Positions 120 through 10,609 of a stretch of DNA of 10,609 nucleotides are shown here, piece by piece. How positions within the stretch are numbered: position 1 is the first letter of the stretch; each line of letters starts with the position of its first letter. A program made the translations under genes and the position numbers. Under the pieces are notes generated by a model. It did not search any database. It was not told where the DNA came from and saw only the letters and a program-made list of their open reading frames with translations. The DNA comes from a virus, in UHGV virus genome UHGV-0223590; one strand, written 5' to 3'.

Positions 120-1169
120 ATGCTTAATACTGTAAAAATATCCAGTTGTGAGTTAATCAACGCCGACTGCCTGGAATTTATCCGGTCGTTACCCGAAAAT
201 TCTGTTGACCTGATAGTCACGGACCCGCCGTACTTTAAAGTGAAGCCTGAGGGCTGGGATAACCAGTGGAAGGGCGACGATGATTACCTGAAGTGGCTGG
301 ACCAGTGTCTGGCGCAGTTCTGGCGGGTGCTGAAACCTGCCGGAAGTCTTTACCTGTTCTGTGGTCATCGCCTGGCATCTGATATCGAAATCATGATGCG
401 TGAACGCTTCAGTGTGCTGAACCATATTATCTGGGCGAAGCCGTCCGGACGCTGGAACGGATGCAACAAGGAAAGCCTGCGGGCGTATTTCCCCGCCACA
501 GAGCGCATTCTGTTCGCGGAACATTATCAGGGGCCGTATCGTCCGAAAGATGCCGGGTATGCGGCGAAGGGCAGTGCACTGAAACAGCATGTGATGGCCC
601 CGCTGATTTCTTACTTTCGTGATGCGCGCGCGGCCCTGGGGATAACGGCAAAACAGATTGCAGATGCCACAGGAAAGAAAAACATGGTGTCGCACTGGTT
701 CAGTGCCAGTCAGTGGCAGCTACCGAACGAAAGCGATTATCTGAAATTACAGTCGCTGTTTGCCCGGGTGGCAGAAGAGAAACATCAGCGCGGTGAACTG
801 GAAAAGCCCCACCACCAGCTGGTGGATACGTATACGTCACTGAACCGGCAGTATGTGGAGCTGCAGAGTGAATATAAGCATCTGCGGCGGTATTTTGGTG
901 TGACGGCGCAGGTGCCGTACACGGATGTGTGGACACATAAACCGGTGCAGTTCTATCCCGGGAAACATCCGTGCGAAAAACCGGCAGAAATGCTGCAGCA
1001 GATAATCAGCGCAAGCAGTCGTCCGGGTGACCTGGTTGCAGATTTTTTTATGGGCTCAGGTTCAACGGTAAAAGCGGCACTGGCGCTCGGGCGTCGTGCG
1101 ATTGGCGTTGAACTGGAGACCGGACGTTTTGAGCAGACAGTCAGGGAAGTTCAGGATTTAATCGTTTGA
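120..1169 (+). CDS. DNA methyltransferase, beta-class (N6-adenine or N4-cytosine), phage-type orphan
   Basis: 349-aa ORF. DPPY (motif IV) near the N-terminus in ...LIVTDPPYF..., and F-x-G-S-G-S-T (motif I, AdoMet binding) near the C-terminus in ...DFFMGSGSTV.... The IV-before-I order is typical of beta-class amino-MTases. The ORF starts right after an in-frame stop at 114-116, so 120 is the only ATG start. Confidence 0.85.
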   Translation: MLNTVKISSCELINADCLEFIRSLPENSVDLIVTDPPYFKVKPEGWDNQWKGDDDYLKWLDQCLAQFWRVLKPAGSLYLFCGHRLASDIEIMMRERFSVLNHIIWAKPSGRWNGCNKESLRAYFPATERILFAEHYQGPYRPKDAGYAAKGSALKQHVMAPLISYFRDARAALGITAKQIADATGKKNMVSHWFSASQWQLPNESDYLKLQSLFARVAEEKHQRGELEKPHHQLVDTYTSLNRQYVELQSEYKHLRRYFGVTAQVPYTDVWTHKPVQFYPGKHPCEKPAEMLQQIISASSRPGDLVADFFMGSGSTVKAALALGRRAIGVELETGRFEQTVREVQDLIV

Positions 1170-1218: not shown

Positions 1219-1294
1219 GGCCCTTTAGCTCAGTGGTGAGAGCGAGCGACTCATAATCGCCAGGTCGCTGGTTCAAATCCAGCAAGGGCCACCA
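1219..1294 (+). tRNA. ileZ: tRNA-Ile2 (anticodon CAU, ileX/ileZ-like; formally Met by anticodon alone)
   Basis: 76 nt, GGCCCTTTAGCTCAGTGGTGAGAGCGAGCGACTCATAATCGCCAGGTCGCTGGTTCAAATCCAGCAAGGGCCACCA. Cloverleaf folds by hand: 7-bp acceptor stem GGCCCTT/AAGGGCC, anticodon loop ctCATaa, T-loop TTCAAAT, encoded CCA. Closely resembles E. coli ileX as I recall it. Gene symbol is by analogy to the ileZ-argN-argO array of Stx phages. Confidence 0.85.
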
Positions 1295-1303
1295 TATCAC
1301 ATA

Positions 1304-1380
1304 CCACCATTAGCTCATCGGGATAGAGCGCCAGCCTTCGAAGCTGGTTGCGCGGGGTTCGAGTTCTCGATGGCGGTCCA
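1304..1380 (+). tRNA. tRNA-Arg (anticodon UCG)
   Basis: 77 nt. D-stem GCTC/GAGC, perfect anticodon stem CCAGC/GCTGG, anticodon loop ctTCGaa, T-loop TTCGAGT, encoded CCA. The acceptor stem has one A-C mismatch and the T-stem has G-U pairs; the 5' boundary is +/- 2 nt. Confidence 0.7.
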
Positions 1381-2301: not shown

Positions 2302-2907
2302 GATTTTGTCAGATGTGAGTAAACTCCTTATGGACTTTGTTGTTTTAGCCCATAAGGACATATTTGCAGAGTGCAACGGTTATTAAAGCATTCATTCAAT
2401 ACGTTATCTGTATTTGTAGGGCATTCCTGGCTGTTTTTGATTAAATTCCAGAATGTTTTATTGAATGGTACTACGTTGTAAATGGTTACAGGTAGCACTT
2501 TGTTATTGAGCATGATGCCTGTGTGAGTCAGTGTAAATATACTTTCAGGAGGTAAGAAAGCATCCGATTGATACCAGATTATTAATTTTATTTTACTCCA
2601 TATGACTGAAAAAGATATTCCGCATGATGGCTGGATAACTGTATCAATCACAATCCACTTCATTTAGTTTCCTTGTTTATGCCTTGCTGGTGATGTTCTG
2701 AAAAGTATAAATGATATTTTTGAATTAAACCATAGAGCAGAATTATTTTTCTGATGTTGTTTATTGTTTATTTAAATGCAGGGTGGTTTATATCTCGTCT
2801 TGTAGTTTATCCATGCATATCTGCTTGATGATGAGGTTTTTATTTAAGGTATGGTTTTGTGTTTTTTCTGTATTACATGTCAGGTATTTTAAAGAATCAT
2901 TTTTCAG

Positions 2908-4401
2908 ATGGTGGAAAGAACCATGGCATTTAAACACTATGATGTTGTCAGGGCGGCGTCGCCGTCAGATCTTGCGGAAAAGCTGACACATAAACTGAAA
3001 GAGGGCTGGCAGCCGTTTGGTAGTCCGGTGGCCATAACCCCTTATACCCTGATGCAGGCGATTGCAGCAGAAGGTGATGTGGTCGTCAGTGGTGCAACTG
3101 AGCCGGAGTGGTACTACGTCATCGTACTGGCCGGGCAATCCAATGCCATGGCTTACGGTGAAGGGCTTCCGCTTCCGGATTCATACGATGCGCCCCATCC
3201 GCGCATTAAGCAACTGGCCCGTCGTAACACAGTGACTCCCGGTGGTGAAGTATGCGTATTTAACGACATCATTCCTGCTGACCATTGTCTGCATGATGTT
3301 CAGGATATGAGTACGATTAATCATCCCCGGGCTGACCTGAGCAAAGGGCAGTACGGCTGTGTCGGACAGGGCTTACATATTGCCAAAAAACTGCTTCCGT
3401 ATATCCCTAATAACGCGGGGATCCTGCTGGTACCATGCTGTCGTGGTGGTTCGGCATTCACCCAGGGCACGGAGGGGACATTCAGCGAGTCCACGGGGGC
3501 CAGTCAGGATTCGGCTCGCTGGGGAGTGGGTAAGCCGTTATATCAGGATCTGCTTTTCCGCACGAAGGCAGCATTGCAGAAAAACCCGAAAAACGTTTTG
3601 CTGGCGATATGCTGGATGCAGGGGGAATTCGATATGACGAATGCCAGTTACGCCCAGCAGCCAGCAGCATTTCTTGCAATGGTACAGCAGTTCCGTGCTG
3701 ACCTTGCCGGGCTGGCGGCGCAGTGTCACGGTGGAAGTCCGGCATCAGTCCCCTGGATTTGTGGCGACACGACATACGCGTGGAAACAAGAACACGGTAC
3801 GCAATATGAAGTGGTATATGGTGCATATAAAGGTAAAGAATCCCAGCAGATTTATTTTGTTCCCTTTATGACCGATGGTAGCGGAGTTAATACACCGACA
3901 AACAACCCGTCAGAAGATCCTGATATTGCCGGGTCTGGTTATTACGGTTCGGCATCCCGAACGAACAAAAACTGGGTATCATCAAATCGCCCGACGCATT
4001 TCAGCTCATGGGCGCGTCGTGGCATTATTCCCGATCGTATGGCAACTGCTATTCTGAACGTAGCCGGTCGCACCTTAGCCTTCATTAGTGGTAAGGCACC
4101 GGAAATCAAACCCTCGCCCGGCGGCGACACGCCATCGGGGCCGTCTGAAGATGCATCCGTACGCACAATCTCCCTGTTGCCGACAGCCGGAGATGCTGCT
4201 GCGCAGGGCTGGAGCATTAAGAATGGCGGAATTCAGTTGTCAGATGGTGTATTTAAGATCACCAAGCAGAGCAATAAAACCTGGTCCCTGATGCATCCGG
4301 TGGATGACGCAGTCTCCCTGCTGACACGGGGTGGCAGACTGAGCTGTAAGTTTCGACTGTCAGGCGCACTGACCAACAACCAGTTCGGTCTGGGAATTTA
4401 G
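2908..4401 (+). CDS. nanS-p: Prophage-encoded NanS-p-like sialate O-acetylesterase (DUF1737-like N-terminal domain + SGNH/DUF303 esterase)
   Basis: 497-aa ORF. The N-terminus (MAFKHYDVVRAASPSDLAEKLTHKLKEGWQPFGSP...) matches the small DUF1737-type domain typical of these phage proteins. An SGNH block-I-like GQSNAMAYGEG follows. Sitting downstream of the late-region tRNA array is the canonical nanS-p position in Stx/lambdoid prophages. An alternative start at ATG 2923 (MAFKHYDV) is plausible. Confidence 0.8.
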   Translation: MVERTMAFKHYDVVRAASPSDLAEKLTHKLKEGWQPFGSPVAITPYTLMQAIAAEGDVVVSGATEPEWYYVIVLAGQSNAMAYGEGLPLPDSYDAPHPRIKQLARRNTVTPGGEVCVFNDIIPADHCLHDVQDMSTINHPRADLSKGQYGCVGQGLHIAKKLLPYIPNNAGILLVPCCRGGSAFTQGTEGTFSESTGASQDSARWGVGKPLYQDLLFRTKAALQKNPKNVLLAICWMQGEFDMTNASYAQQPAAFLAMVQQFRADLAGLAAQCHGGSPASVPWICGDTTYAWKQEHGTQYEVVYGAYKGKESQQIYFVPFMTDGSGVNTPTNNPSEDPDIAGSGYYGSASRTNKNWVSSNRPTHFSSWARRGIIPDRMATAILNVAGRTLAFISGKAPEIKPSPGGDTPSGPSEDASVRTISLLPTAGDAAAQGWSIKNGGIQLSDGVFKITKQSNKTWSLMHPVDDAVSLLTRGGRLSCKFRLSGALTNNQFGLGI

Positions 4402-4610
4402 TGCTGGCGAGCCTTGACGGGCTGATCTCCTATGCAGCAAAGGTTCATCTCAAAGTAAGACGAACGCTATGACAAACCAAGATTCTATAGACCTATCTGA
4501 TCTTCGTGGAATGGTCAGTTTTCCAGACAAAAGGTAATCACCATAGTCGTATGGCTATGAATCTTGTTGCTGCAGATAAGCATTTTGTGATTGAAGTGGT
4601 CAAATCTCTC

Positions 4611-4639
4611 AAATGCAGTAAAATGCAGTGCGCTATAAT
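4611..4639 (+). promoter_or_regulatory. Putative sigma70 promoter for the 206-aa gene (perfect -10 TATAAT at 4634-4639, weak -35), overlapped by a tandem 9-bp direct repeat
   Basis: TATAAT lies 28 nt upstream of ATG 4668, with SD AAGGAG at 4655-4660. AAATGCAGT occurs at 4611-4619 and again at 4621-4629. Confidence 0.4.
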
Positions 4640-4667
4640 TCAATAACGGAGGGAGTAAGGAGAAGTC

Positions 4668-5288
4668 ATGAAAGATCAAGATGTTAGGTTCGCGGTGCAT
4701 CATAAGCTTTTGAAAGAATCGCATTTAGATCCAGACTGCCTTGTGGTCGATGAATTTTCCATATCCCTTGGCGCCAGTAGAGCAGACATTGCTGTAATAA
4801 ATGGTGTTATACACGGGTACGAGCTCAAAAGTGAATATGACTCTTTGGAGCGTTTGCCTCTTCAAATCAAGCATTATTCTTCTGTAATGGACAAGGTTAC
4901 TCTTGTCGTAGCTGAGAAACACCTTGAGGGAGCATTAAAGTTAATTCCAGGTTGGTGGGGCGTTAAAACGGTTTCTGTTGGGCCAAAAGGCGCCATTCTT
5001 ATAAAGCACATGCGTGGAGAAAAGCTTAATCGAAACCATGACACATTGATGCTCGCTCAATTGCTTTGGAAAGATGAATGTATCGACGTACTTGAACGAT
5101 GGGGCTATTCCAAAGGAATCAAAAGCAAGCCCCGATTTGAGTTATGGAATATTATTGCGGAAAATATTCCAATAGCGAATCTCAGGCTTGAAGTCAGAAC
5201 AGCCTTAAAGAAACGCGTAGGCTGGAAAGTTAAGGCTTGGCAGGCTGAGTCTGCGCCAACCAATAAAGCTGTCTCACGACTAACGTAA
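4668..5288 (+). CDS. Hypothetical protein, 206 aa, with PD-(D/E)xK-like motif arrangement (putative nuclease)
   Basis: ORF with strong SD (AAGGAG, 7-nt spacer) and an upstream TATAAT. Carries ...VVDEFSI...SRADIAVING..HGYELKSEYD..., i.e. E29, D39, E52-x-K54 spaced like a restriction-endonuclease-fold core. Lies in AT-rich DNA unlike the flanking phage genes. Confidence 0.65.
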   Translation: MKDQDVRFAVHHKLLKESHLDPDCLVVDEFSISLGASRADIAVINGVIHGYELKSEYDSLERLPLQIKHYSSVMDKVTLVVAEKHLEGALKLIPGWWGVKTVSVGPKGAILIKHMRGEKLNRNHDTLMLAQLLWKDECIDVLERWGYSKGIKSKPRFELWNIIAENIPIANLRLEVRTALKKRVGWKVKAWQAESAPTNKAVSRLT

Positions 5289-6297
5289 TATGGTGCGTAT
5301 GTGCAACTTTACGCCATTCTTTAGAGCCGCCAGATTTGTTAGCGCCTAATGATCTTTGGTAAATGTAATCATCCCCCCAACTAAATTTGGAGCCAAAGAC
5401 TTGATACTCTGGCGAACTAACAAGGGTAGTACATAAGTTTTTAGTTTGGCCCCATCCATTTCCTTTAACTGCGGTACCTTTTACAAAGATCCATGAGGTA
5501 TCGTTCGAATATCTCACTGAGACATACTGAGACATGAAGCGTGGGTCTACGCTCGTAATGGTAGAGCTAGCGGTGGGATAATCACTAAAACTTGGCGTTC
5601 TTCCATTGCTAAAATTCTGTACTACGTACATCCAAAGATCGTATTCATGGCGCGGAATATGATGAACTTGATGTTGCGGTATCCCTGCCTGTGATGCCGG
5701 GTATGCGGTTGAAGATAAAATCAAGTTTCTCCACGGAGCTTGGCCTGATAATGTGTTGACCATGCTTAATGCTTGTTGTTTTAAACTATCAGTTGCGTTT
5801 TGAATATCTCCAAAATCAATGATTACATCAATTAAACTAGGATGAATATTTAAGTGGTTAACCAGACTTGTGAATTGGTGCCATGTCTGGGGGGTGATAG
5901 ATATAGCGAGCCCATTGATTAAGTTGCGTTGAACAGCATGTATATAGTTTGTTGAATATGCGGGAGAAACAACAGGGATAATTTCCTTACCATTTACTCT
6001 AGCATCTTGGATACACATATCTAGAGGATGATGGCGGCTCGAACCATGTTTATCTAAATATTTAACATCCAGCAAAACAGGACGATTGGCTTTCCAGGAT
6101 GCCGCAAGGTTAATACCGAAGTCAGATAAGTAAGAACTCAAACTCTTCTTGTAGCATTCGTTTTCATAATCCCAGTCTATGTCTGGAATGGTAATGATCG
6201 GAGTAAAACCAGAGAGCGTAGTTTGATCTAAAAGCATCAGAGATTCATATTCAGCAGGCTTCCATTTCAGCTGTGGATAATATTGATGTTGACTCAT
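5230..6297 (-). CDS. Hypothetical protein, 355 aa, partner of the 206-aa gene (convergent, 59-bp 3' overlap)
   Basis: Long minus-strand ORF with a strong SD (AAGGAG, 6 nt before ATG, seen as CTCCTT at 6303-6308 on +). AT-rich like its partner. No catalytic motif I can assign by eye. Confidence 0.65.
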   Translation of the reverse strand: MSQHQYYPQLKWKPAEYESLMLLDQTTLSGFTPIITIPDIDWDYENECYKKSLSSYLSDFGINLAASWKANRPVLLDVKYLDKHGSSRHHPLDMCIQDARVNGKEIIPVVSPAYSTNYIHAVQRNLINGLAISITPQTWHQFTSLVNHLNIHPSLIDVIIDFGDIQNATDSLKQQALSMVNTLSGQAPWRNLILSSTAYPASQAGIPQHQVHHIPRHEYDLWMYVVQNFSNGRTPSFSDYPTASSTITSVDPRFMSQYVSVRYSNDTSWIFVKGTAVKGNGWGQTKNLCTTLVSSPEYQVFGSKFSWGDDYIYQRSLGANKSGGSKEWRKVAHTHHITLVVRQLYWLAQTQPAKP

Positions 6298-6327
6298 TAA
6301 AACTCCTTAAAATCTTTACTTATCCTA

Positions 6328-6356
6328 AGTATAGTGTTATGGCGTAACGCCAATTG
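6328..6356 (-). promoter_or_regulatory. Putative promoter/operator for the 355-aa gene (-10 TATACT; inverted repeat TGGCG-N3-CGCCA in spacer/-35 region)
   Basis: On the minus strand TATACT lies about 30 nt upstream of the start codon. The palindrome TGGCGTAACGCCA (6340-6352) sits immediately upstream of it. Confidence 0.3.
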
Positions 6357-6520
6357 TTTTTATACACTTGAAAACATTGGGAAAAGTTGAGCTATATCTA
6401 AATTTACAAAATTGGATGTTATAGAAATCGAGGTTTCAACTAGGCATGGAACTGCAAAATTTTTAATGCCTGCACGCGAAAGTCGTTGGCGGGTCCTTTC
6501 CGGTGATCCAGATCGTTACG

Positions 6521-6532
6521 GGGCGGCGACCT
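6521..6532 (+). other. cos: cosN (lambda-type cohesive end site, GGGCGGCGACCT)
   Basis: Exact match to the lambda 12-nt cohesive end. The preceding CTTTCCGGTGATCC...GTTACG resembles the lambda right end, and the following CTCGCGG(T)TTTTC(A)CTATTTATGAAAATTTT matches the lambda left end almost base for base. Distance to the Nu1 start (187 nt) is close to lambda's. Confidence 0.9.
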
Positions 6533-6707
6533 CGCGGTTTTTCACTATTTATGAAAATTTTTCAGGGAAAATCGTGTCGGTACTTCTCGAATATAACTTT
6601 TTGTTTTTTTTAATATTGCATTCATAAATGTCCGACATGAAAGTGTCCGAAAATGCCTTTTTTTGGCGTTTTCATGTCGGGCCTTGTATTTGATAATGAG
6701 TTGTTCT
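6533..6707 (+). promoter_or_regulatory. cosB-like region (terminase small-subunit binding sites) between cosN and Nu1
   Basis: Repeated motif related to CGACATGAAA in both orientations: TGTCCGACATGAAAG at 6629-6643, TGTCCGAAAATG at 6645-6656, and the inverted TTTTCATGTCGGG at 6669-6681. Position corresponds to the lambda R3-I1-R2-R1 region. Confidence 0.6.
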
Positions 6708-7256
6708 ATGAAGGTTAATAAAAAGAGGCTTGCCGAAATTTTCAACGTGGATCCGCGAACGATTGAACGCTGGCAGTCTCAGGGGCTCCCTTGCGTCTCC
6801 AAAGGCAGTAAGGGCATTGAATCTGTATTTGATACTGCCATGGCAATTCAGTGGTATGCGCAGAGGGAAACTGATATCGAAAACGAAAAGCTCCGCAAAG
6901 AACTGGCCGATTTGCGTGCGGCAGCGGAGTCAGATTTACAACCCGGCACCATTGACTATGAACGCTACCGGCTCACAAAAGCGCAGGCAGATGCGCAGGA
7001 ACTGAAAAATGCCCGTGAAGACGGAGTGGTGCTGGAAACTGAACTATTTACCTTCATTCTGCAACGTGTGGCACAGGAGATTTCGGGGATACTTGTGCGT
7101 GTGCCGTTGACATTACAGCGTAAATATCCGGACATTTCACCATCACACCTTGATGTGGTGAAAACTGAAATCGCGAAAGCCTCCAATGTTGCAGCTAAGG
7201 CCGGTGAAAACGTGGGCGGGTGGATCGATGATTTCAGACGCACAGAAGGCAGCTAA
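6708..7256 (+). CDS. nu1: Terminase small subunit (lambda gpNu1 homologue)
   Basis: [28 protein letters not shown]...[48 protein letters not shown]... is colinear with lambda Nu1 (MEVNKKQLADIFGASIRTIQNWQEQGMP...). Start moved to the internal ATG 6708 (MKVNKK) rather than the track's 6663, matching the lambda N-terminus and the distance from cosN. Confidence 0.9.
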
Positions 7257-9346: not shown

Positions 9347-9915
9347 AACGAACGCCTGTCCTGATTGATGTGAACGGCGTTCCGCTTCGGGAGAGCCTCA
9401 GCTACAACGGTGGCGGTGCAGGATTTGGCGGGCAAATGGCAGAGTGGTTGCCACCCTCGCAGAGTGCCGATGCGGCCCTGCTGCCCGCGTTGCGTCTGGG
9501 GAATGCCCGTGCAGATGATCTGGTGCGCAATAACGGAATAGCGGCCAATGCGGTGGCCCTGCATAAGGATCACATTGTCGGGCATATGTTTCTGATTAGC
9601 TACCGTCCGAACTGGCGCTGGCTGGGGATGCGGGAGACCGCGGCAAAAAGTTTTGTCGATGAGGTGGAGGCGGCCTGGTCAGAATACGCAGAAGGGATGT
9701 TTGGTGAGATCGACGTGGAAGGGAAACGCACGTTTACGGAATTTATCCGTGAAGGTGTGGGCGTTCATGCGTTTAACGGCGAAATCTTTGTGCAGCCGGT
9801 CTGGGATACGGAGAGTACGCAACTGTTTCGTACGCGTTTTAAAGCCGTGAGTCCGAAACGGGTGGACACGCCAGGACACGGTAGCTGCCAGTATCAATAT
9901 CAAGCCGGGCCATGA
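9343..9915 (+). pseudogene. B: Portal protein gene B, truncated (N-terminal ~180 codons only)
   Basis: MKRTPVLIDVNGVPLRESLSYNGGGAGFGGQMAEWLPP...[15 protein letters not shown] is near-identical to the lambda gpB N-terminus. Homology stops at about 9882 and the ORF ends 11 codons later ([10 protein letters not shown]). Lambda gpB is over 500 aa. Confidence 0.85.
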
Positions 9916-10609
9916 TTATTATTTTTATATCCGCAGTGTGAATACAGTCGGCAAATCGGCATTCGTGGAGGCTGTCGGTCGGGCGAGCGATGATGCGGAA
10001 GGTTACCTGGATTTTTTCAAAGGAGAAATCGGGAAAACACATCTGGCCCAGGAGCTGTGGACGCAGATTGATAACGGTCAGCTTGCGCCGGACCTGGCTG
10101 AAATCAGGACGTCCATTACGAATGTCAGCAATGAAATCACGCAGACCGTCAATAAAAAACTGGAAAATCAGAGTGCGGCAATCCAGCAGATACAGAAAGT
10201 TCAGGTTGATACAAATAATAACCTGAACAGCATGTGGGCCGTGAAACTGCAGCAGATGCAGGACGGACGCCTTTATATTGCGGGTATCGGTGCCGGTATT
10301 GAGAATACGCCAGCAGGAATGCAGAGTCAGGTGCTGCTGGCGGCAGACAGGATTGCGATGATTAATCCTGCGAATGGCAACACAAAGCCGATGTTTGTTG
10401 GTCAGGGCGATCAGATATTTATGAATGAAGTGTTCCTGAAATATCTGACGGCTCCCACCATTACCAGCGGCGGTAATCCTCCGGCATTTTCCCTGACACC
10501 GGACGGGCGGCTGACGGCGAAAAATGCCGATATCAGCGGTAACGTGAATGCGAACTCCGGGACGCTCAACAACGTCACGATTAACGAGAACTGTCGGGTT
10601 CTGGGAAAA
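9884..10609 (+). pseudogene. J: Tail fibre/host-specificity protein J, 5'-truncated internal fragment (no start codon; runs off window end)
   Basis: A frame different from B translates to [47 protein letters not shown]...[76 protein letters not shown]..., colinear with the distal part of lambda gpJ. Open to the window end. An in-frame stop at 9848-9850 lies just upstream and there is no ATG near the junction. Confidence 0.85.

What the first reader, a model, noticed from the sequence alone, without database searches (positions are those of the whole stretch)
5230..6297. 355-aa partner protein with no recognisable motif
A long, well-initiated ORF (AAGGAG 6 nt before ATG) in the same AT-rich island. 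It has no Walker, HxH, SGNH, HNH or other motif that I can see. Its size and pairing with a ~200-aa nuclease-like protein suggest a sensor or regulator component. It is possibly a Beta-protein (PF14350)-like protein, but that is a guess from size and context only.
Basis: inference. Interest (0 to 1): 0.55.

Follow-up and report, generated by a model that had tools for sequence, protein, structure and literature searches.

The report
Gop-less beta/cII prophage defence pair
The 355-aa ORF is a real, conserved gene for a "Beta family" (PF14350) TIM-barrel protein that is always paired tail-to-tail with a small restriction-endonuclease-like protein; the pair is the two-gene core of the satellite-phage P4 gop-beta-cII anti-phage system, so its kind is known but its mechanism is not.

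Summary
The ORF at 5230-6297 is real. RefSeq already names it "beta family protein". Its partner at 4668-5288 (+) is an sce7726 / Phage_P4_cII family protein. An AlphaFold model and an invariant E-D-ExK motif place the partner among MmcB-like PD-(D/E)xK nucleases. The Beta model (pLDDT 93) is a TIM barrel with no close solved relative and a conserved Asp/Arg/His set.

The two genes converge and their 3' ends overlap by 59 bp. Every informative locus pairing Beta with a cII homolog showed this convergent layout (Proteobacteria, a Bacteroidetes MAG, P4, Rac-SA53). No gop toxin gene is present. A distant Beta homolog instead follows HigB and an Xre-peptidase, as in PD-lambda-2.

The pair sits about 220 bp from cosN in a decayed E. 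coli-type lambdoid prophage. The prophage has lost its lysis and head/tail genes but kept this pair intact. dN/dS is about 0.05.

Best reading: a mobile two-gene anti-phage or abortive-infection module. The nuclease is the effector and Beta is the controlling or sensing subunit. This is inferred from homologous systems, not shown. The locus is a variant of a known kind, of moderate interest.

The parts
5230..6297 (-). Gene for the 355-aa Beta-family protein (PF14350), predicted to be a (beta/alpha)8 TIM barrel with a C-terminal hairpin and helical extension
6303..6308 (-). Ribosome-binding site AAGGAG, 5 nt upstream of the ATG; AAGGA is conserved in homologous loci
   Evidence: Sequence. Alignment of upstream regions, A5.
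6356..6401 (-). Upstream block conserved among the enterobacterial loci aligned (TTAGAT-n-TAGCTCAA ... TTTTCA ... TATAAAA); probably the module's own promoter/operator region
   Evidence: Alignment A5 covers 7 loci; their sequence further upstream is much less conserved in the same alignment. The simple sigma-70 scan found no match on this strand, so a promoter function is inferred only.
4668..5288 (+). Partner gene: a 206-aa sce7726 / Phage_P4_cII family protein, an MmcB-like PD-(D/E)xK nuclease fold with the catalytic E29, D40 and E52-x-K54 intact
5230..5288 (.). The 59-bp stretch where the 3' ends of the two convergent genes overlap. On the cII side it encodes a non-conserved, disordered tail (aa 189-206).
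   Evidence: Coordinates. pLDDT below 50 for residues 189-206. The tail is absent from most homologs. Convergent layout in 37 of 38 distinct pairs, with stop-to-stop spacing from -27 to +62 nt.
4597..4624 (+). Weak sigma-70-like promoter candidate (TGGTCA-16-TAAAAT), 44 nt upstream of the cII-like gene
   Evidence: Consensus scan only. The number of sites found does not exceed the shuffled expectation.

Best explanation
The ORF encodes a Beta-family TIM-barrel protein. Together with the convergently transcribed MmcB-like PD-(D/E)xK nuclease (cII/sce7726 family), it forms a self-contained, horizontally mobile two-gene conflict module. The module is carried as a 'moron' next to cos in a lambdoid prophage. 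It is the gop-less core of the P4 gop-beta-cII anti-phage system.

Proposed mechanism (inferred): in the lysogen, Beta holds the effector in check. On superinfection a phage cue acts through Beta's conserved pocket or surface. One candidate is a phage accessory protein like orf184, which triggers P4-type gop-beta-cII. The cue releases or activates the nuclease, which cuts DNA and aborts the infection. Convergent, 3'-overlapping transcription lets the two genes be expressed independently, and possibly antagonistically.

Shown here: family membership, both folds (predicted), the intact nuclease motif, the conserved pairing and orientation, purifying selection, mobile/defence-type contexts, and the absence of gop.

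Inferred: defence function, which protein is the effector, and the trigger.
For: - Family and folds.
- Conserved pairing: every informative locus pairing Beta with a cII homolog (37 of 38 distinct pairs; the exception is a 1.1-kb contig) has the cII homolog directly downstream and convergent. The identities to the window protein run from 100% down to 21-22%.
- The same layout appears when starting from the cII side, in Burkholderia, Acinetobacter and an alphaproteobacterial contig. It also appears in distant Betas of 26-30% identity.
- The two proteins diverge in parallel, 78/83, 53/63, 48/51, 32/41 and 22/27 % identity for Beta/cII. One locus (Rac-SA53, 30/54) departs from this.
- dN/dS is 0.04-0.08 for both genes.
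- Contexts are typical accessory or defence sites. They include lysis-to-terminase in a Cronobacter prophage and beside int in a Vibrio P2-like prophage. Others lie beside a cI-like repressor, Shedu SduA_C, or ImmA/IrrE-HTH and Multi_ubiq.
- Published function of homologs: gop-beta-cII protects against lambda and P1, and beta counters Gop toxicity (PMC9122126). orf184 triggers its cell-death activity (bioRxiv 10.1101/2023.04.06.535777). The Beta-like PD-lambda-2C is required for defence but not for toxin neutralisation (PMC9519451).
- The pair remains intact in a prophage that has lost its lysis and head/tail genes.
Against: - No experiment exists for any gop-less two-gene beta/cII locus that I could find.
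- The window protein is only 22% identical to P4 beta and scores 37 bits on PADLOC's 'beta' model. Transfer of function is therefore long-range.
- In P4 the known toxin is Gop, not cII. The role of cII there is undefined.
- Beta has the conserved polar constellation of an enzyme: D77, D161, D239, R216, R262, D309, H335, H336. A purely stoichiometric 'antitoxin' role would not explain this.
- No physical interaction between Beta and cII was tested.
Confidence: 0.55

Rival explanations
1. Restriction-modification-like logic. Beta is a TIM-barrel enzyme that modifies DNA, or makes or destroys a nucleotide-derived compound, and so protects 'self'. The cII-like PD-(D/E)xK nuclease attacks unprotected (incoming) DNA.
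For: - Beta has an enzyme-like set of invariant or near-invariant polar residues. Several of them, D77, D239 and R262, lie in or at the ends of predicted beta-strands.
- From general knowledge, convergent gene pairs are common in type II R-M systems, where independent expression of the two genes matters.
Against: - Beta also serves in systems without any nuclease: PD-lambda-2.
- Beta neutralises a membrane-type toxin in P4 (PMC9122126). That does not fit a DNA-modification role.
Confidence: 0.17
2. A pure addiction (toxin-antitoxin) module that stabilises the prophage or island, with no role in phage defence.
For: - P4 gop/beta behave as a toxin-antitoxin pair (PMC9122126).
- Authors of an A. 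baumannii island proposed a stabilising role for HigAB plus Beta (PMC7643966).
- The pair persists in a decayed prophage.
Against: - The two experimentally tested systems that contain a Beta homolog both protect against phage (PMC9122126, PMC9519451).
- Convergent, separately promoted genes are atypical for type II TA operons.
- Several neighbourhoods are defence-island-like.
Confidence: 0.15
3. A phage life-cycle function, for example control of lysogeny (hence the historical name 'cII' in P4) or DNA processing near cos, rather than inter-phage conflict.
For: - The pair is adjacent to cosN both here and in P4 (PMC9122126).
- Some database entries call cII homologs 'regulatory protein'.
Against: - The pair occupies quite different positions in different phages: the nin/Q region in Rac-SA53, beside int, and beside the repressor.
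- It also occurs in non-phage chromosomal contexts.
- It is non-essential in P4 (PMC9122126).
- It is absent from most lambdoid prophages: only 126 of 5426 E. coli genomes hold the whole pair.
Confidence: 0.08

Closest known systems
Satellite phage P4 gop-beta-cII anti-phage system (PADLOC/DefenseFinder 'gop_beta_cll'; Ghisotti 1990; Rousset 2022, PMC9122126)
   Same: - It has a Beta-family protein of the same length (355 aa) and an sce7726/cII-family nuclease-fold protein.
- The two genes are convergent in both.
- Both loci lie next to a cos site on a mobile element.
- The D...ExK nuclease motif residues of cII are retained in both.
   Different: - The window has no gop gene, which is the known toxin.
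- Sequence identity is only 22% for beta and 27% for cII.
- The cII-like protein is 206 aa here and 264 aa in P4.
- The genes overlap by 59 bp here. In P4 they are separated by 27 bp that hold a terminator.
- The host element is a lambdoid prophage, not a P4-like satellite.
PD-lambda-2 (Vassallo 2022, PMC9519451): HigB-like protein + Xre/IrrE-peptidase + Beta-like component C
   Same: - Component C belongs to the same Beta family. The window protein scores higher on the PADLOC PD-Lambda-2_C models (E=4e-32) than on the P4 'beta' model (E=3.5e-10).
- Component C is an accessory factor required for defence.
   Different: - The window has no HigB-like or Xre-peptidase genes.
- PD-lambda-2 has no cII-type nuclease. 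The functional clone has no room for one, and a metagenomic PD-lambda-2-type locus shows none.
- Its genes are co-directional rather than convergent.
MmcB-like / DUF1052 PD-(D/E)xK proteins (for example SPO1766, PDB 3dnx), for the partner protein
   Same: - It shares the alpha-beta-beta-beta-alpha-beta core carrying the E/D/ExK motif.
   Different: - There is no significant sequence match to any PDB chain.
- The partner here has an extra C-terminal helical domain (aa 126-182).
- I know of no linkage of MmcB proteins to a Beta gene (from memory, not tested).
Convergent type II restriction-modification gene pairs, and type I toxin-antitoxin loci with 3'-overlapping transcripts (for example txpA/RatA)
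   Same: - A potentially toxic nuclease gene faces a second gene tail-to-tail.
- The overlapping 3' ends would yield complementary RNA ends.
   Different: - Beta has no methyltransferase motifs or fold.
- Both partners here are proteins; no antisense small RNA has been shown.
- The resemblance is architectural only and rests on general knowledge.

Membership tests
Pfam PF14350 Beta_protein | Whole-protein HMM score above the gathering cut-off (27 bits), with full-length coverage | tested here: met
   190.4 bits, E=8.2e-56, protein residues 6-342 on profile positions 1-342 of 342. All 34 homolog clusters carry PF14350.
P4 gop-beta-cII defence system | Presence of a gop homolog (a small toxin with hydrophobic N-terminal segments) directly upstream of beta | tested here: not met
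   tblastn with P4 Gop finds it only in P4. No minus-strand ORF of 20 aa or more lies between the beta ATG and cos. The flanking small ORFs do not hit the PADLOC gop model, which does detect P4 Gop at E=5e-70.
P4 gop-beta-cII defence system | A beta homolog | tested here: met
   PADLOC 'beta' model E=3.5e-10 over the full length. BLASTP against P4 beta gives 22% identity and E=3e-7 over 338 aa. The relationship is distant.
P4 gop-beta-cII defence system | A cII homolog adjacent to beta and convergent with it | tested here: met
   PADLOC 'cll' E=4.3e-31. BLASTP against P4 cII gives 27% identity and E=1e-18. Convergent layout.
P4 gop-beta-cII defence system | Protection against phage (lambda, P1) and toxicity triggered by phage orf184 | not testable with these tools
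   Requires plaque and toxicity assays. Known only for the P4-type three-gene locus (PMC9122126; bioRxiv 10.1101/2023.04.06.535777).
PD-lambda-2 | A HigB-like component A and an Xre/IrrE-peptidase component B upstream of, and co-directional with, the Beta-like component C | tested here: not met
   The neighbours of the window gene are the cII-like gene on one side and cos/Nu1 on the other. Component B is easily recognised where it is present (L064, E=4e-154).
NCBIfam NF033832 sce7726 family (partner protein) | Score above the curated cut-off (70 bits) | tested here: met
   184.1 bits, E=2.3e-54, residues 1-183 on profile positions 1-182 of 184.
NCBIfam 'sce7725 family' (the presumed neighbour family of sce7726; recalled from memory) | An HMM match of the 355-aa protein | tested here: not met
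   The window protein has no NCBIfam hit at E<=0.1. None of the 68 diverse Beta proteins has a hit at E<=1e-3.
(beta/alpha)8 TIM-barrel fold (Beta protein) | Eight-fold beta/alpha barrel topology with significant structural matches to solved TIM barrels | tested here: met
   [not shown]
PD-(D/E)xK nuclease superfamily (partner protein) | An alpha-beta-beta-beta-alpha-beta core carrying the E...D...(D/E)xK catalytic residues | tested here: met
   [not shown]
Type II restriction-modification system | A DNA methyltransferase (SAM-binding Rossmann fold with catalytic motifs) partnered with the nuclease | tested here: not met
   Beta matches only PF14350 in Pfam, and its model is a TIM barrel. The window's only methyltransferase (120-1169) lies 3.5 kb away in another module.

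The most novel reading that the evidence does not exclude
Beta proteins are not passive antitoxins. They are a widespread family (more than 2400 clusters at 50% identity) of TIM-barrel enzymes or ligand sensors. They act as a common, exchangeable control module for unrelated effectors: a PD-(D/E)xK nuclease here, the membrane toxin Gop in P4, and HigB plus an Xre-peptidase in PD-lambda-2. They might work by making, destroying or binding a nucleotide-derived molecule or a phage product. The strictly conserved tail-to-tail, 3'-overlapping arrangement with the nuclease gene would add an RNA-level (antisense or transcriptional-collision) layer that sets the Beta:nuclease ratio.
Probability: 0.2. 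Interest if true: 0.75.

Novelty: new variant of a known kind. Interest (0 to 1): 0.4.

Why it matters
Two experimentally validated anti-phage systems contain a Beta-family protein: P4 gop-beta-cII and PD-lambda-2. The searchable literature I could reach contains no account of what that protein does.

This locus shows three things:
- The widely conserved unit among the sampled loci is Beta plus a nuclease-fold protein. Among the loci examined, gop occurs only in P4.
- Beta is predicted with high confidence to be a TIM barrel with an enzyme-like conserved pocket.
- The pair keeps an unusual convergent, overlapping gene layout across phyla.

A two-gene module is a simpler experimental handle than the three-gene systems. 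It can be used to ask how Beta senses infection and controls an effector. It also flags a common prophage cargo that defence-annotation tools keyed to the three-gene system may miss. For the window itself the practical message is modest: the 'mystery' ORF is an already named family member.

Tried and rejected
- **NCBIfam scan of the 355-aa protein and of 68 diverse relatives:** no hit. I therefore dropped my initial recollection that it might be the 'sce7725 family' partner of sce7726.
- **Sequence searches against PDB chains, single sequences and profiles, for both proteins:** nothing significant.
- **Fold searches for Beta:** only generic TIM-barrel matches. The DpdA/TGT similarity is not specific enough to assign a function.
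- **Search for a gop homolog or any small upstream ORF:** negative.
- **The search for related loci with broad alignments (A2, A4):** failed for lack of a conserved peptide stretch. I sampled distant members through the look-up of encoding contigs instead. Two of those contigs were too short to be informative.
- **Literature:** no paper mentions PF14350. The 'sce7726' hits, judged by title and abstract, appear to be genome or omics reports without mechanistic work on the protein; they were not opened. The original P4 paper (Ghisotti 1990, PMC249035) is not held and is cited only through Rousset 2022.
- **Promoters:** the sigma-70 consensus scan gave no excess over shuffles (4 found against 5.9 expected). 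Promoter assignments are therefore weak.
- **Palindrome at 6340-6352:** it is not conserved in homologous loci, so it was not pursued as an operator.
- **Chance ORF or structural/lysis protein:** considered and rejected. The gene shows conservation, purifying selection and a family match.

Full report
**Observation**

The window contains an ATG-initiated ORF of 355 codons at 5230-6297 on the minus strand. An AAGGAG Shine-Dalgarno (reverse complement of 6303-6308) lies 5 nt upstream of the start. The region 4500-6750 has GC 0.37-0.45, against about 0.51-0.56 in the adjoining prophage DNA. A 206-codon ORF lies at 4668-5288 on the plus strand. The two genes converge and their 3' ends overlap by 59 bp (5230-5288).

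The ORF is a real gene:
- It has 34 homolog clusters at 90% identity, down to 31% identity, all carrying PF14350.
- An exhaustive search finds 2447 representatives at 50% identity with E<=1e-3, nearly all single-domain proteins of 350-380 aa.
- dN/dS against homologs that are 77-85% identical is 0.04-0.08 for both genes, with synonymous sites close to saturation.

**Identity**

The 355-aa protein matches Pfam PF14350 (Beta_protein) over the whole profile at E=8e-56. It also matches PHROG 9159 at E=7e-153. In PADLOC it hits the PD-Lambda-2_C models (E=4e-32) and, more weakly, the P4 'beta' model (E=3.5e-10). It hits no NCBIfam model.

The partner matches NCBIfam NF033832 'sce7726 family' at E=2e-54 and PADLOC 'cll' at E=4e-31. 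Its homologs carry the newer Pfam family PF26915, Phage_P4_cII.

RefSeq already annotates the same proteins in E. coli as 'beta family protein' (WP_000077907.1) and 'sce7726 family protein' (WP_000654791.1).

**Structure**

Across 68 family members, including P4 beta at 21% identity, these residues are invariant: Y6, P33, D161, P200, D239, W328 and H336. These are conserved in at least 90%: E16, D77, R216, Y240, R262, Y263, Q284, D309 and H335. Several of them (D77, D239, R262) sit in or at the ends of predicted strands, as barrel active sites do.

**Genomic setting**

The window is a lambdoid prophage of E. coli type. It carries, in order:
- a phage DNA methyltransferase;
- two tRNAs;
- an IraM-like gene;
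- a SASA/NanS-p-like esterase;
- the beta/cII pair;
- the lambda-type cohesive-end sequence GGGCGGCGACCT at 6521-6532;
- Nu1, gpA, gpW and the start of the portal gene.

The pair therefore sits at the extreme right end of the packaged genome, about 220 bp from cosN.

The prophage is decayed when compared with the prophage of strain DA33133. About 2.25 kb holding the esterase 3' end and the whole lysis cassette is missing at 4398-4400. The portal gene is cut after codon 180 and joined to gpJ DNA. The beta/cII pair is nevertheless intact.

**Conserved pairing and orientation**

I compared every locus obtained. The loci came from:
- E. coli;
- E. albertii;
- Pantoea;
- Pectobacterium;
- Klebsiella;
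- Edwardsiella;
- Vibrio;
- Cronobacter;
- IMG/VR viral contigs;
- a Bacteroidetes MAG;
- phage Rac-SA53;
- satellite P4.

In 37 of 38 distinct pairs a cII homolog lies immediately downstream of beta in convergent orientation. Stop-to-stop spacing runs from a 27-nt gap (P4) to a 62-nt overlap. The one exception is a 1.1-kb contig that is too short to judge.

Starting from the cII side gives the same picture in Burkholderia, an Acinetobacter prophage and an alphaproteobacterial chromosomal contig. Distant Betas of 26-30% identity also show it (probably 93). Beta and cII identities fall broadly in parallel, which indicates inheritance as a unit.

A gop homolog is found only in P4. One distant Beta (P0160) lies downstream of a HigB toxin gene and a protein matching PD-Lambda-2_B at E=4e-154, with no cII. 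The published functional PD-lambda-2 clone likewise has no room for a cII gene.

The family is therefore used in at least three architectures:
- Beta plus cII, which is the commonest in my sample;
- gop plus Beta plus cII, in P4;
- HigB plus Xre-peptidase plus Beta, in PD-lambda-2.

An upstream block about 45 nt long (6356-6401, minus strand) and the RBS are conserved among the enterobacterial loci aligned, whereas sequence further upstream is much less conserved. This suggests that the module carries its own control region.

**What is known**

Rousset et al. (PMC9122126) showed that P4 gop-beta-cII protects E. coli against lambda and P1. [quoted passage not shown] Silas et al. (bioRxiv 10.1101/2023.04.06.535777) found that the phage accessory gene orf184 triggers cell death through gop-beta-cII. 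Vassallo et al. (PMC9519451) showed that PD-lambda-2C, 'related to a P4 phage antitoxin', is not needed to neutralise the toxic component but is required for defence.

I found no paper on the fold or biochemistry of Beta or cII, and none on a gop-less two-gene system.

**Most likely mechanism**

I favour, at about 0.55, a mobile two-gene anti-phage or abortive-infection module. In this model the PD-(D/E)xK protein is the effector. Beta is the controlling or sensing subunit that keeps the effector silent until infection. Convergent overlapping transcription would allow independent, possibly mutually antagonistic, expression.

The shown steps are the family memberships, the predicted folds, the intact catalytic motif, the conserved linkage and orientation, purifying selection, the accessory or defence-type contexts, and the absence of gop. 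The defence function, the assignment of effector and sensor, and the trigger are inferred from distant homologs (22-27% identity to P4).

The rivals are:
- an RM-like scheme in which Beta is a protective enzyme (0.17);
- a pure addiction module (0.15);
- a phage life-cycle role (0.08).

The enzyme-like conservation in Beta is the main observation that the simple 'antitoxin' picture does not explain.

**Verdict**

The locus is a gop-less variant of a known, experimentally validated but mechanistically unexplained defence system. The proteins themselves are already named in RefSeq.

Interest is moderate (0.4). A specialist would not be surprised by the identity. The TIM-barrel-plus-nuclease core, its invariant tail-to-tail layout and Beta's reuse with unrelated effectors together give a concrete, testable handle on how this family works.

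Noticed in passing
window 4398-4400: Deletion junction. Compared with related prophages (for example E. coli DA33133), about 2.25 kb is missing. The lost DNA carries the 3' end of the SASA/NanS-p-like esterase gene, holin, YdfR, lysozyme and Rz. A 3-nt microhomology marks the junction. The esterase ORF is truncated to 497 aa from 618 aa.
   Followed up: partly
window 9883-10609: The lambda-family portal gene is cut after codon 180 and joined directly to DNA that is 99.7% identical to gpJ (tail tip). The head and tail genes have therefore been deleted, and the prophage is cryptic.
   Followed up: partly
window 6521-6532: GGGCGGCGACCT, which from memory is the lambda cosN cohesive-end sequence. 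It lies about 130-175 bp upstream of the Nu1 terminase small-subunit gene (depending on the start codon) and about 220 bp from the beta start codon. The P4 hotspot that carries gop-beta-cII is also adjacent to cos (PMC9122126).
   Followed up: partly
window 6340-6352: A perfect palindrome, TGGCGT-A-ACGCCA, followed by a T-rich run on the plus strand, 43 nt upstream of the beta ATG. It could be an operator, or a terminator for plus-strand (cII) read-through transcripts. It is not conserved in homologous loci.
   Followed up: partly
window 1219-1380: Two phage-borne tRNA genes: tRNA-Met(CAT), which RefSeq annotates as tRNA-Ile in the related prophage, and tRNA-Arg(TCG). They lie downstream of the methyltransferase gene.
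   Followed up: no
window 120-1169: An N6/N4 DNA methyltransferase (PF01555, E=2e-44; PADLOC MTase_II, E=4e-167) with no adjacent restriction gene among the ORFs scanned. It is probably an orphan phage methyltransferase.
   Followed up: no
window 2328-2663 (minus strand): A 111-aa ORF at the position of the gene annotated as the anti-adapter IraM in the related prophage. It lies in a second AT-rich patch (GC 0.34-0.36). It has no Pfam or PADLOC hit.
   Followed up: no
L066 2440-3662 and 4294-4524; JGI 3300050046 contig; L006 9061-9704: Distant Beta/cII pairs sit beside other conflict genes. These are an ImmA/IrrE peptidase plus HTH and a Multi_ubiq protein, a Shedu SduA_C protein, and HicAB. 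The neighbourhoods look like defence islands.
   Followed up: no
L064 1432-4017: A metagenomic contig shows the PD-lambda-2 architecture: HigB_toxin, then a PD-Lambda-2_B protein (E=4e-154), then Beta. This Beta is only 26% identical to the window protein, and no cII is present. The Beta family therefore serves at least two unrelated effector sets.
   Followed up: yes
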